The position numbers and the translations under genes were made by a program. A stretch of DNA of 64,000 bases, taken from sequence record MZ501052, one strand, 5' to 3'. Positions 2,653 through 34,355 of the stretch are shown here, in pieces (position 1 is the first letter of the stretch; the number at the start of each line of letters is the position of its first letter). This stretch comes from Escherichia phage AugustSocin. The notes under the pieces are model-generated. The model was not told where the DNA came from. It was given only the letters and a program-made list of their open reading frames with translations, and did no database searches.

Positions 2653-2735
2653 AGTCTTTACCCTTATGTTTTTGTTTGCGTTTAGATTGAAGTTCTGATT
2701 TCTTCTTGTCCTTATGAACAGAAGCCTTATTGAAA

Positions 2736-2954
2736 TCATGTTTTGCTACAAGATTGTTCATAATGATTTATAACCTCGTTTAAACATTTGTCTGTGAAAG
2801 AAAACTTTTTAGCCACAGAACATTCGATGATGTGTTCTTTCAAATCTTTAGAGTCAGTATATCCCATCTCAGTAATAAAGTGACGAATTAAAGCTTTATT
2901 CTTATCATTAACAGAATTAAAATAATCTGCTTTAGAATCAATTATTCTCATCAT
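2736..2954 (-). CDS. hypothetical protein (72 aa)
   Basis: ORF-track ORF in a tightly packed minus-strand operon. Confidence 0.45.
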   Translation of the reverse strand: MMRIIDSKADYFNSVNDKNKALIRHFITEMGYTDSKDLKEHIIECSVAKKFSFTDKCLNEVINHYEQSCSKT

Positions 2955-4775: not shown

Positions 4776-4784
4776 CCCTAAAAA

Positions 4785-6565: not shown

Positions 6566-6646
6566 TCACTGGCGTCCGAAGACGCCTTTGGTTTTAAGAT
6601 TGTTACGATAGAACTGCATCACATGTTCGTTATGGAAATTACTCAT
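6566..6646 (-). CDS. stp: Stp peptide (host restriction system modulator)
   Basis: hand-translated 26 aa [26 protein letters not shown], matching recalled T4 Stp. Confidence 0.75.
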
Positions 6647-7103
6647 TAGTATGCCTGTAAAACAAATTTAAAGTTATCAGCCAACATACGGTTCATTTCT
6701 TCAAGTGTTTGATACTCAGAATGATGATTACGAGTAAACGCTAAAGCTAACTGTCCTTTTCCAAATCCCGTCGTCAGAGGTTTCATCTTAGAAGCAGGCA
6801 GATAAAATACTGTGTATGGAACATTGTTATTTGCAATAGTACGTGCAAGCTGAGACCGACGTTGACGAATATGACTTAGAACCGCGCTGAATCCTTGCTT
6901 AGAACGCTGATTACCTACATAAAATCGTGCAGACACACATGGATTACTAAATGGACGACCATCTAATTTACTCACTAAAAGTAAAATCCAGGTTTAGATA
7001 AAATATCTTTGTGTGGAACTCCCAAAAACCACTCACCACCCTTGATTGTACCAATAACAGTAGCGCCCGCATTATTCAGATCAGTAACAGTCATATATTT
7101 CAT
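6646..7103 (-). pseudogene. ndd: ndd (nucleoid disruption) interrupted by a frameshift at a T-run
   Basis: ATG at 7103 with GAGGAAA RBS opens 42 codons ending in TAG at about 6975; the 109-codon ORF 6646..6975 continues in the -1 frame from GTG with no RBS; 42+109=151 aa. Confidence 0.6.
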
Positions 7104-7162
7104 ATTAATTTCCTCTAAAATTATTTTCTACTCCAAGGCCGCATGAATACACGGCCATTAAA

Positions 7163-7870: not shown

Positions 7871-8054
7871 AACTTTTTAAAAATATTCGTAATAAATGTG
7901 AATACCAATCACTACTGCCGAAACTTGTGCAACCCACCACGCACAAGCAATAAGTACAGAATTAAAAATTTTCATAATAACCTCATCACAAAAGTAAATA
8001 TTAAACAAATTACTGGAATACTAATTAACCAAACAAAACACCACCATAGTGAAC

Positions 8055-32874: not shown

Positions 32875-33717
32875 TTAATCAACTGCTATCGGATGAATAG
32901 CATTAAACTTATGAAATGCTTCTGATTTTTCTTTACGTGAAACACACATGCGAAGAACCTTTAATGGCTCATCTTCTTCACCCAACGATTTTCGTTTTTC
33001 AATATTCGATGTTTTCCAACGAGCTTGTTCTGGAAACTCTCTATTGATTTGCTCAAGCGCTCTATTATGTTTAGAATTACTACGAATTGAACTGCACCCT
33101 CCAGGAGCTTGTGCTTTTCCAGATACAACCAGATATTTGAACAAGGCCAAATGCGGATAACCTTGATTAATTAAATTGAGAAATGCATACATATCTTCGC
33201 ACAAATCAATTTTTCCATACCCAATTTGTTCTGTCGTAAGTTTTCCAAGGTCATACCATGTATTCGTGAATCCATATAAATTTTCACGATAATTACCCCA
33301 AGATGAAGTAATTTTAAAAATAGGTAGACGAGCATGACCGTGATAATACCCACAATCCATGGCATCTTCGACGTATTGAATCAATTCATAGAACTGTTCA
33401 CGAGTCAATTGATTGACTTTATCCACACAACGACGATCATCTCTTTTTCGCATTGAACTCATACGAATAGTAGTATCATCGTCAATCATCCAGATTCGTT
33501 GACCTGCATACATATCAGTAATTGCTTTACGAGTACCGGCAATTCCATTAACATCATCAGGAATAGTTACAATTTTAGCTTTAGACCCATAGGCATCATA
33601 ATAAGCTTTTTCTTCATGTTCACGTACTACGATATGAGGTTCATAATCAGTCGGAAACATATCAAGGGCAGAAACTGCCCCTACACGTTGATAGCTCGGA
33701 ATTACGAATTGAATCAT
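32875..33717 (-). CDS. glycosyltransferase at the beta-gt locus, likely T2/T6-type beta-glucosyl-HMC alpha-glucosyltransferase
   Basis: 280-aa ORF with DxD-like motif (MIDDDT); occupies the beta-gt position but is shorter and unrelated to 351-aa T4 beta-gt. Confidence 0.55.
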   Translation of the reverse strand: MIQFVIPSYQRVGAVSALDMFPTDYEPHIVVREHEEKAYYDAYGSKAKIVTIPDDVNGIAGTRKAITDMYAGQRIWMIDDDTTIRMSSMRKRDDRRCVDKVNQLTREQFYELIQYVEDAMDCGYYHGHARLPIFKITSSWGNYRENLYGFTNTWYDLGKLTTEQIGYGKIDLCEDMYAFLNLINQGYPHLALFKYLVVSGKAQAPGGCSSIRSNSKHNRALEQINREFPEQARWKTSNIEKRKSLGEEDEPLKVLRMCVSRKEKSEAFHKFNAIHPIAVD

Positions 33718-34355
33718 TTAAGTGCCTTACATTTGTCAAAATGGTATCTTGTCATATTTGGCCCACGTCCTTTTAGTCCGCAATGCGGACATATTTTTTC
33801 TATCAAATTATGAGGTTTTCCTTTACGATTTTTAGACATCGTTTCTTTAATTATTTTAGCTTTTTCTACGCCAAAAATTTCTTCATAAGTTTTACCAGAA
33901 TTTTCCTTGGCTCGATTTATAATTCCATATGCCTGCTCATTTTTACCATACATTGGATTACCTTCGCCTTTCATTCTTTTAGAATGATCAGGACGCTTGA
34001 TTCCACGAAAGGCATTTCCGCACTTATATCTTTCTTCTGGAGATAGTTTTTTACCGTACATTCCATTTAATTTGCCTGGAAAACTTCCTCCCCATGCTTC
34101 ATTCTTTAAATTATATGAATCCGGACAATTAGCAGCATCTAAACAAGTTAAAATAATTTCTTCAACCTGTCTAAACATTGGTCCTTCATATAATATTTCT
34201 TTATTAAAGGATTTTATTCCATATTTCTTTTTAGCATGTTGCCAAACTACACCCGAACCATCATAATTCGGGTTGTGACCATCATGACTTCCTATATACC
34301 ACTTTTTAGTTTTAGGATGTTTATACTTATAAACATGCGGCACATTTACTTCCAT
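33714..34355 (-). CDS. GIY-YIG family homing endonuclease (Seg-like)
   Basis: N-terminal VYKY...KWYIGSH (GIY-YIG-like); basic C-terminal NUMOD-like repeats; CPHC...C zinc-finger-like end. Confidence 0.6.
   Translation of the reverse strand: MEVNVPHVYKYKHPKTKKWYIGSHDGHNPNYDGSGVVWQHAKKKYGIKSFNKEILYEGPMFRQVEEIILTCLDAANCPDSYNLKNEAWGGSFPGKLNGMYGKKLSPEERYKCGNAFRGIKRPDHSKRMKGEGNPMYGKNEQAYGIINRAKENSGKTYEEIFGVEKAKIIKETMSKNRKGKPHNLIEKICPHCGLKGRGPNMTRYHFDKCKALK

What the first reader, a model, noticed from the sequence alone, without database searches (positions are those of the whole stretch)
6646..7103. ndd (nucleoid disruption gene) is split by a frameshift at a short T-run
An ATG at 7103 with a strong GAGGAAA RBS opens 42 codons ([42 protein letters not shown]) that end at TAG. 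The rest of the protein ([10 protein letters not shown]... 109 codons) continues in the -1 frame with no RBS or ATG of its own. The two pieces sum to 151 aa, the size I recall for T4 Ndd. The junction is ...GGATTTTAC TTTT AGTGAG...; one extra T would restore a single frame. This is either a genuine ndd-null allele (ndd is non-essential), a homopolymer sequencing error, or less likely a recoding site.
Basis: partly seen in the sequence, partly recalled or inferred. Interest (0 to 1): 0.6.

Follow-up and report, generated by a model that had tools for sequence, protein, structure and literature searches.

The report
Frameshifted ndd gene in phage AugustSocin
The T4-like phage in this window has lost one T from a run of five in its non-essential host-nucleoid-disruption gene (ndd), splitting it into 42- and 109-codon pieces; the lesion is almost certainly real, but the GenBank record of this phage already annotates it, so it is ordinary.

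Summary
On the minus strand, ORF 7103..6975 (42 aa) and ORF 6975..6646 (109 aa) are the two halves of Ndd (Pfam PF06591). They are separated by a 1-nt deletion in a T5 run (T4 at 6977-6980). Adding one T back gives a 152-aa protein identical to intact Ndd of related phages.

Exact protein look-ups identify the window as Escherichia phage AugustSocin (Bas38, MZ501052). Its depositors already annotated "Ndd part 1" and "Ndd part 2". That genome was sequenced on Illumina at 86x. No other gene in the 64-kb window is broken, so a sequencing artefact is unlikely.

The same T5-to-T4 deletion arose independently in an unrelated metagenome contig. Two other ndd lesions exist in public data: an 11-nt deletion in FL33/FL34, and a +1 at another T-run in an SRA contig. 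More than 100 other relatives are intact, so this is recurrent loss of a dispensable gene, not a conserved split gene or recoding site. The break lies inside the most conserved beta-strand of the family (GFYF).

Verdict: a genuine, recent null allele, already known, of low interest.

Side observation: a high-confidence model gives Ndd a GIY-YIG nuclease-like fold, closest to T4 EndoII.

The parts
6975..7103 (-). ndd 5' fragment, 42 codons plus TAG. It is identical to QXV76312.1 'nucleoid disruption protein Ndd part 1 [Escherichia phage AugustSocin]'.
   Evidence: Pfam PF06591 positions 1-43, E 7.5e-18; exact identity to P0164
6646..6975 (-). ndd 3' fragment, 109 codons from GTG 6975-6973 to TAA 6648-6646, in the -1 frame relative to the 5' fragment. 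It is identical to QXV76311.1 'Ndd part 2 [AugustSocin]'.
   Evidence: PF06591 positions 47-154, E 2.6e-70; exact look-up
6977..6980 (-). Frameshift site: a T4 run where relatives have T5 (TAC TTTTT AGTG). The last T begins the premature TAG (6977-6975). The G of that TAG is the first base of the GTG of the 3' fragment.
   Evidence: a 1-nt gap against the intact homologous loci; the frameshifted ENA contig L024 shares the T4 run; 105 exact T5-junction records
7109..7115 (-). Shine-Dalgarno sequence GAGGAAA of ndd, 5-8 nt upstream of the ATG at 7103.
   Evidence: conserved in all relatives
6566..6646 (-). stp (26 aa, [26 protein letters not shown]). Its ATG overlaps the ndd TAA (TAATG). It may be exposed to translational or Rho polarity from the premature stop 330 nt upstream (inference).
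   Evidence: T4 and RB27 annotation

Best explanation
This is a genuine, evolutionarily very recent loss-of-function allele of ndd in Escherichia phage AugustSocin (Bas38, MZ501052).

How it arose (inferred): replication slippage removed one T from a T5 run spanning codons 42-43.

What follows (inferred from sequence): translation from the normal ATG and RBS stops after Phe42 at a TAG. At most a small amount of a 109-aa C-terminal fragment could be made by termination-reinitiation at the overlapping GTG. The break lies inside the central, most conserved beta-strand (GFYF) of a single compact domain, so neither fragment is expected to fold or act alone. The phage should therefore fail to move the host nucleoid to the cell periphery, yet remain viable because ndd is dispensable.

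Shown here: the lesion, its uniqueness among close relatives, its recent origin, the cleanness of the assembly, and the recurrence of ndd lesions.

Inferred only: loss of function, and origin by slippage.
For: 1. Lesion: a 1-nt deletion relative to the intact homologous loci examined and 105 exact T5-junction records.
2. Source identified: the 42-aa and 109-aa products and gp52 are exact matches to AugustSocin proteins QXV76312.1, QXV76311.1 and QXV76307.1, each on one 167,411-bp contig. MZ501052 is missing from the searchable phage collection. This explains why the best hits over 25 kb were only 94-96% identical.
3. Sequencing quality: Illumina NextSeq, Geneious assembly, 86x for Bas38, with ambiguities resolved by Sanger sequencing (PMC8594841).
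4. Clean window: tblastn of 171 Aplg8 ORFs finds no other interrupted gene. Of 342 shared homopolymer runs of 5 or more, 5 differ in length. Four of these are intergenic, and at least two of the intergenic differences are polymorphisms shared with ESh24 or T4.
5. Recency: the restored ORF differs from the intact ndd of bov9_1 and of an SRA contig by 7 synonymous and 0 non-synonymous changes.
6. Recurrence: the same T5-to-T4 deletion occurs in ENA contig ERZ18533897 NODE_1378. It is in a different lineage: 19 mismatches to the window, against 8 to intact RB27. FL33/FL34 carry an 11-nt deletion at codons 38-41. SRR19918129 carries a +1 at another T-run.
7. Structure: the break lies within strand 39-45. 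G39, Y41 and F42 are the most conserved residues across a 39-member diverse family. The second model has pLDDT 91.6.
8. Dispensability: the region-D deletion saDelta9, which removes ndd, still gives about 50% of the wild-type burst (PMC6071114).
Against: No reads were available to me, so the call rests on the published coverage and on indirect tests. The mutation may have arisen during laboratory propagation rather than in the wild isolate. Loss of function is inferred, not measured. A TAGTG stop/start overlap, and a -1 slip on C-UUU-UAG that would recreate the exact wild-type sequence YFLVSK, leave room for trace expression.
Confidence: 0.86

Rival explanations
1. Sequencing or assembly artefact: the phage really has T5, and the consensus dropped one T in the homopolymer.
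For: The lesion is a 1-nt change in a homopolymer, the classic artefact site. The restored ORF shows no decay at all, which is also what an artefact would look like. The second occurrence is in a metagenome contig with only about 5x coverage.
Against: The genome was sequenced on Illumina at 86x with Sanger resolution of ambiguities. No other gene is broken among about 100 genes, and 374 runs of 5 or more bases lie in ORFs of at least 60 aa that are all intact. Four of the five run-length differences relative to Aplg8 are intergenic, although most runs are coding. That is the signature of selection on real variation, not of random error. The depositors deliberately annotated 'part 1/part 2'.
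Confidence: 0.07
2. Ndd is still expressed and functional. Either -1 ribosomal slippage on C-UUU-UAG gives exactly the wild-type YFLVSK, or a two-piece protein forms: the 42-aa fragment plus a 109-aa fragment reinitiated at the GTG that overlaps the TAG.
For: The TAG and GTG overlap (TAGTG). A -1 shift of tRNA-Phe with a stop codon in the A site would restore the wild-type sequence (reasoned from the sequence). A small hairpin starts about 8 nt downstream. The same T4 allele recurs in a second phage.
Against: There is no X-XXY-YYZ slippery heptamer. The downstream fold is not significant (z -1.06), and the hairpin is simply coding sequence shared with intact relatives. No SD precedes the GTG, and no internal promoter or RBS signal was found. 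The second T4 allele has GTA instead of GTG, so it lacks the restart codon. The arrangement is not conserved: more than 100 intact alleles, with the two T4 alleles nested in different clades. Ndd is needed in bulk, about 4000 molecules per cell (PMC6071114). The split cuts the most conserved strand.
Confidence: 0.05
3. The split form is a conserved natural 'short Ndd' architecture of a sub-lineage, that is, a normal gene organisation rather than a mutation.
For: One further contig (ERZ18533897) has the same two-ORF layout.
Against: The two alleles differ by 19 substitutions, and each is closest to an intact allele. All eight contigs encoding the identical neighbour Ndd.1 have an intact ndd. 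Among the 120 listed Ndd homologue clusters, all but three are 147-167 aa.
Confidence: 0.02

Closest known systems
GenBank MZ501052, Escherichia phage AugustSocin (Bas38): CDS 'nucleoid disruption protein Ndd part 1' (QXV76312.1) and 'part 2' (QXV76311.1)
   Same: Both products are identical in sequence to the window's two ORFs, including the GTG-initiated 109-aa piece. The neighbouring gp52 is also identical.
   Different: Nothing differs: this is the same locus. The BASEL paper text does not discuss the split (no occurrence of 'ndd' or 'frameshift').
Classical T4 ndd mutants and region-D deletions (Snustad and co-workers; saDelta9, NB5060, T4GT7)
   Same: Loss of Ndd in a viable T-even phage. 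ndd lies in the dispensable rIIB-52 region (PMC6071114, PMC12115623, PMC5241400).
   Different: Those are laboratory point or deletion mutants of T4, often combined with denB loss. Here a single natural or stock-borne 1-nt deletion occurs in another Tequatrovirus, with denB apparently intact (no break flagged).
Other disrupted ndd alleles in public data: ERZ18533897 NODE_1378 (T5 to T4), FL33/FL34 (11-nt deletion), SRR19918129 contig (+1 at a T5 run near codon 26)
   Same: Independent frame-breaking lesions in the 5' third of ndd. Two are at the very same T-run.
   Different: They are in different ndd lineages and, except for ERZ18533897, at different positions. The ERZ allele has GTA, not GTG, after the stop.
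Homopolymer frameshift hot spots of T4 (e.g. the rII A-run hot spots; established knowledge, not re-read here)
   Same: Loss or gain of one base in a short A/T run by slippage, recurring at the same site.
   Different: The run here has only 5 T. The recurrence frequency is unknown: two events in the public data I could reach.

Membership tests
Phage_T4_Ndd (Pfam PF06591) | Significant full-length match to the family profile | tested here: met
   The restored 152-aa sequence scores E 5.5e-95 over profile 1-154. The fragments cover 1-43 and 47-154.
Phage_T4_Ndd (Pfam PF06591) | One uninterrupted ORF of about 147-154 codons | tested here: not met
   The gene is split into 42 + 109 codons by a 1-nt deletion. 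Nearly all of the 120 listed homologue clusters are 147-167 aa.
Phage_T4_Ndd (Pfam PF06591) | Conserved position between ndd.1 and stp/ac/52.1/52 | tested here: met
   The window gene order 52, 52.1, ac, stp, ndd, ndd.1 matches T4, RB27, KIT03 and Aplg8.
Phage_T4_Ndd (Pfam PF06591) | Nucleoid-disrupting, DNA-binding activity | not testable with these tools
   Needs DAPI microscopy or biochemistry.
Programmed -1 ribosomal frameshift site | Slippery heptamer X-XXY-YYZ | tested here: not met
   The site reads UAC-UUU-UAG. Only the P-site codon is slippery, and re-pairing on CUU mismatches at the first position.
Programmed -1 ribosomal frameshift site | Stimulatory downstream RNA structure | tested here: not met
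   MFE -22.2 kcal/mol against shuffles at -19.2 +/- 2.8, z -1.06.
Programmed -1 ribosomal frameshift site | Conservation of the two-frame arrangement among relatives | tested here: not met
   105 exact T5-junction records. All intact loci in hand carry T5. Only one other T4 allele was found, in a different lineage.
Homopolymer sequencing artefact | Error-prone platform or low coverage | tested here: not met
   Illumina NextSeq 550 at 86x, with Sanger sequencing for ambiguities (PMC8594841 and its S5 Table). Taken from the paper; reads were not inspected.
Homopolymer sequencing artefact | Other genes in the same assembly broken at homopolymers | tested here: not met
   No other interrupted gene in 64 kb.
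GIY-YIG nuclease superfamily (side observation on Ndd itself) | GIY-YIG alpha/beta fold | tested here: met
   [not shown]
GIY-YIG nuclease superfamily (side observation on Ndd itself) | Conserved GIY...YIG...R...E...N catalytic motif and detectable sequence homology | tested here: inconclusive
   G39-F-Y41 is nearly invariant. (Y/F)62-V-(G/A)64 and (R/K)67 are only semi-conserved. There is no Pfam GIY-YIG hit, and hhalign against the window's own Seg-like GIY-YIG ORF gives probability 0.1.

The most novel reading that the evidence does not exclude
The T5 run at ndd codons 42-43 could be a recurrent and possibly selected off-switch. T-even phages would repeatedly inactivate Ndd at this spot. 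The known cases are two independent T5-to-T4 events, an 11-nt deletion four codons upstream in FL33/FL34, and a +1 at the neighbouring T-run. Losing nucleoid disruption might be advantageous on some hosts, for example by escaping a defence that senses Ndd or nucleoid perturbation, or during growth on E. coli K-12. On this reading the split gene marks adaptive, reversible loss rather than neutral decay.
Probability: 0.07. Interest if true: 0.45.

Novelty: already known. Interest (0 to 1): 0.12.

Why it matters
It matters little in itself. The finding is a null allele of a dispensable, well-known accessory gene, and the public record of this phage (BASEL collection Bas38) already annotates it.

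Practical relevance:
1. Users of Bas38 should know it is very probably Ndd-negative. Infected cells should keep a central nucleoid, and this may slightly affect host-DNA fate. In T4, ndd loss together with denB loss raises transduction and plasmid release (PMC12115623, PMC5241400). Here denB appears intact, so a large effect is not expected.
2. Bas38, compared with a close ndd+ relative, is a ready-made natural pair for studying what Ndd contributes.
3. Four independent ndd lesions in public data show that the gene is under weak or conditional selection.

The side observation is of more biological interest than the frameshift: Ndd is predicted with high confidence to have a GIY-YIG fold most like T4 EndoII.

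Tried and rejected
1. Exact-pattern scans for the T4 junction in IMG/VR, JGI metagenomes and GTDB genomes, and junction-specific megablast in the phage collection, all found nothing. For a while I read this as 'allele unique'. That was too strong. Those collections lack the AugustSocin record and ENA assemblies. The allele surfaced only through the profile search of protein representatives.

2. The look-up of encoding contigs reported both fragments and gp52 as 'not on record', although listing of cluster members later found them. The first tool's index evidently lacks that record.

3. The WL-3 'truncated' Ndd (117 aa, P0083) is only a mis-called start. Its DNA is intact.

4. The 168-bp extra segment in phage Solly is an additional small ORF between ndd and stp, not a disruption.

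5. A frameshift-stimulating RNA structure was not supported.

6. No internal promoter or RBS for the 3' fragment was found.

7. Classical papers were not held (Bouet 1998, PMC107561; Miller 2003, PMC150520). Statements on classical ndd mutants therefore rest on secondary sources and on memory.

8. A weak profile hit of Ndd to YegP/DUF1508 (E 0.085) is not significant. It was superseded by the GIY-YIG fold result.

9. hhalign of the Ndd profile against the window's Seg-like GIY-YIG ORF showed no similarity.

Full report
**1. The observation**

Reading the minus strand, an ATG at 7103-7101 lies behind a GAGGAAA Shine-Dalgarno sequence (7115-7109). It opens 42 codons that end at TAG 6977-6975. 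A second ORF of 109 codons runs from GTG 6975-6973 to TAA 6648-6646, in the -1/+2 frame. Both are parts of Pfam PF06591 Phage_T4_Ndd: profile positions 1-43 at E 7.5e-18, and 47-154 at E 2.6e-70. The joined sequence scores E 5.5e-95 over the full profile.

Alignment with KIT03, ESh24, BECP11, RB27 and T4 shows the only structural difference. The window has TAC TTTT AGTG where every relative has TAC TTTTT AGTG. The T-run is at window 6977-6980.

First, the 3' piece does have a potential start: a GTG overlapping the stop as TAGTG, without an SD. Second, the restored protein is 152 aa, as in the nearest relatives. T4's own 151 aa reflects a separate one-codon deletion.

**2. What the window is**

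No record in the phage collection exceeded about 96% identity over 25 kb. The profile search of protein representatives returned a 42-aa protein ending at the same Phe42. Its 90% cluster contains QXV76312.1, 'nucleoid disruption protein Ndd part 1 [Escherichia phage AugustSocin]'. That protein is identical to the window's 5' fragment.

Exact look-ups then matched two more window proteins to AugustSocin. The 109-aa ORF is QXV76311.1, 'Ndd part 2'. The window's gp52 is QXV76307.1. Each is on a single 167,411-bp contig.

The BASEL paper's S5 Table lists AugustSocin (Bas38) as MZ501052, 167,411 bp, 86x coverage, from sewage inflow at Lenzerheide. MZ501052 is absent from the searchable collection, while its alphabetical neighbour MZ501051 is present.

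So the window is AugustSocin, and the split is already annotated in GenBank. The paper's text does not mention it.

**3. Real mutation or artefact?**

According to the paper, genomes were sequenced on Illumina NextSeq 550, assembled at 50-100x, and ambiguities were resolved by Sanger sequencing. Bas38 had 86x.

Independently of the paper, I tested the window for signs of a homopolymer-error-prone assembly.

- A base-level indel census against Aplg8, over about 58 kb of alignable sequence, found the ndd deletion to be the only isolated frame-breaking indel inside a real gene.
- tblastn of 171 Aplg8 ORFs found no other interrupted gene. The remaining flags were antisense ORFs, 5' extensions produced by my ORF definition, or a 3-codon C-terminal difference in a small arn-region ORF.
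- Of 342 shared homopolymer runs of 5 or more bases, five differ in length. Four of them are intergenic. The run lengths at 7874 and 62659 are shared with ESh24 (and T4 for 62659), and the separate A3/A4 difference at 7120 is shared with BECP11.

Most runs lie in coding sequence: 374 of 428 in the window. Random errors would therefore hit genes preferentially. The observed bias towards intergenic sites is what purifying selection on real variation produces. An artefact is thus unlikely; I estimate about 7%.

**4. Age and origin**

With one T restored, the ORF differs from the intact ndd of phage bov9_1 and of an SRA contig by 7 synonymous and 0 non-synonymous substitutions. The protein is 100% identical. 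There is no sign of decay, so the event is very recent. It may even date from propagation of the isolate.

All eight contigs that encode the identical neighbour Ndd.1 carry an intact ndd.

**5. Recurrence**

ENA metagenome contig ERZ18533897 NODE_1378 (25.3 kb) carries the same T5-to-T4 deletion. Its ndd differs from the window's by 19 substitutions but from intact RB27 by 8. The window's ndd differs from intact bov9_1 by 7. The nearest differing sites flank the run at 28 nt upstream and 8 nt downstream of it. The two alleles are therefore best explained as independent slippage events.

Two further lesions exist:

- Phages FL33 and FL34 carry an 11-nt deletion (CTGGATTTTAC) at codons 38-41. 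I predicted this from a 41-aa product and confirmed it by a 100% junction match in exactly those two records.
- An SRA contig carries a +1 at the T5 run near codon 26.

Against these stand 105 records with the exact T5 junction. Of the 120 listed homologue clusters, all but three are 147-167 aa. ndd is thus occasionally and repeatedly lost. It is not organised as a split gene in any lineage.

**6. Consequence for the protein**

Two AlphaFold models were made: pLDDT 69 with a shallow alignment and 91.6 with a diverse one. Both place residues 39-45 in a central beta-strand. Across 39 diverse family members, the nearly invariant residues are G39, Y41, F42, G71, F147 and Q150. The frameshift cuts directly after F42.

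The protein is a single compact domain, so two separately made pieces are unlikely to be active.

Bypass is conceivable. A -1 slip of tRNA-Phe on C-UUU-UAG would give exactly YFLVSK, and the TAGTG overlap could allow some reinitiation. However, several points argue against meaningful expression:

- There is no slippery heptamer.
- There is no significant downstream structure (z -1.06).
- No SD or promoter signal precedes the GTG.
- The second T4 allele lacks the GTG altogether.
- Ndd is reported to be made at about 4000 molecules per cell (PMC6071114), so trace expression should not suffice.

Viability is expected, because a deletion removing ndd and its neighbours still yields about half the wild-type burst (same paper).

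A possible secondary effect is polarity on stp, whose ATG overlaps the ndd stop codon. This is inferred, not tested.

**7. Comparison with what is known, and verdict**

This is a member of the Ndd family by sequence and synteny, but it fails the 'intact ORF' criterion. It is an ndd pseudogene or null allele. It resembles classical T4 ndd mutants and region-D deletions in effect. It does not meet the criteria of a programmed frameshift site.

Because the depositors already annotated 'Ndd part 1/part 2', the finding is a rediscovery, and its interest is low. The least ordinary reading not excluded is that this T-run is a recurrently used, perhaps selected, off-switch for Ndd. I give that about 7%.

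**8. Side observation**

The family's 'GFY ... (Y/F)VG ... R' pattern resembles a GIY-YIG signature with a long spacer. Sequence methods do not detect the relationship. I found no paper linking Ndd with GIY-YIG in the held library.

This rests on a predicted structure. If it is right, the nucleoid-disruption protein is a derivative of the same nuclease fold as the phage's host-DNA endonuclease II.

Noticed in passing
[not shown]
   Followed up: partly
L024 2501-2960 (ENA ERZ18533897 NODE_1378): An unrelated metagenome contig carries the same T5-to-T4 deletion in ndd. It is in a different lineage (N22, T29, GTA instead of GTG), which indicates an independent event at the same run.
   Followed up: yes
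PP400788.1 about 102023-102073 and PP400789.1 about 161306-161356 (phages FL33, FL34): These sibling phages carry an 11-nt deletion (CTGGATTTTAC) in ndd codons 38-41, giving a 41-aa product ending ...ILSKLFSK*. This is a third independent ndd lesion, within a few codons of the AugustSocin one.
   Followed up: yes
L013 1457-1913 (Logan SRR19918129 contig): This contig has an independent +1 frameshift in ndd at the other T5 run (GGGTTTTT(T)GG, near codon 26). The gene caller produced a 141-aa chimeric-frame product, P0082.
   Followed up: yes
P0013, P0036, P0043, P0066, P0089, P0169, P0179 (NCBI protein names): Several Ndd homologues from assemblies labelled E. coli or Klebsiella are named 'naphthalene 1,2-dioxygenase' by NCBI. 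This is an evident naming error for phage Ndd.
   Followed up: no
L014 1399-1854 (phage vB_EcoM_WL-3, MT968995.1): The deposited Ndd of WL-3 is 117 aa only because an internal start was chosen. The full 151-codon ORF from the normal ATG is intact.
   Followed up: yes
window 33714-34355 (-): A 213-aa Seg-like GIY-YIG homing-endonuclease ORF (…HVYKYKHPKTKKWYIGS…) sits between the beta-glucosyl-HMC-alpha-glucosyltransferase gene and gene 42. It is absent at this position in Aplg8, and the identical protein is widespread in other Tequatrovirus genomes.
   Followed up: partly
window 4780, 7120, 7874, 22009, 25476, 62659: Single-base length differences in A/T runs relative to Aplg8, all intergenic. 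The run lengths at 7120, 7874 and 62659 are shared with BECP11, ESh24 or T4. Those at 4780 and 22009 are found only in this phage among the relatives checked, and 25476 differs in all three phages compared.
   Followed up: partly
window 2730-2954 (-): A small arn-region ORF ends three codons earlier than its Aplg8 counterpart (a stop opposite R73 of 75). It is otherwise 96% identical.
   Followed up: no
P0143 (745 aa) and P0147 (106 aa) from the representative search: P0143 is a roughly tenfold tandem-repeat protein that matches Ndd profile positions 69-125 in 10 stretches (E 6.6e-15); this is unexplained. P0147 joins about 70 unrelated N-terminal residues to the last 36 residues of Ndd, so it is probably another rearranged ndd locus.
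   Followed up: no
PMC8594841, Tevenvirinae section: The BASEL paper reports an unexplained weak EcoRV sensitivity for AugustSocin and T2. T2 has an intact T5 junction, so a link to ndd is not suggested.
   Followed up: no
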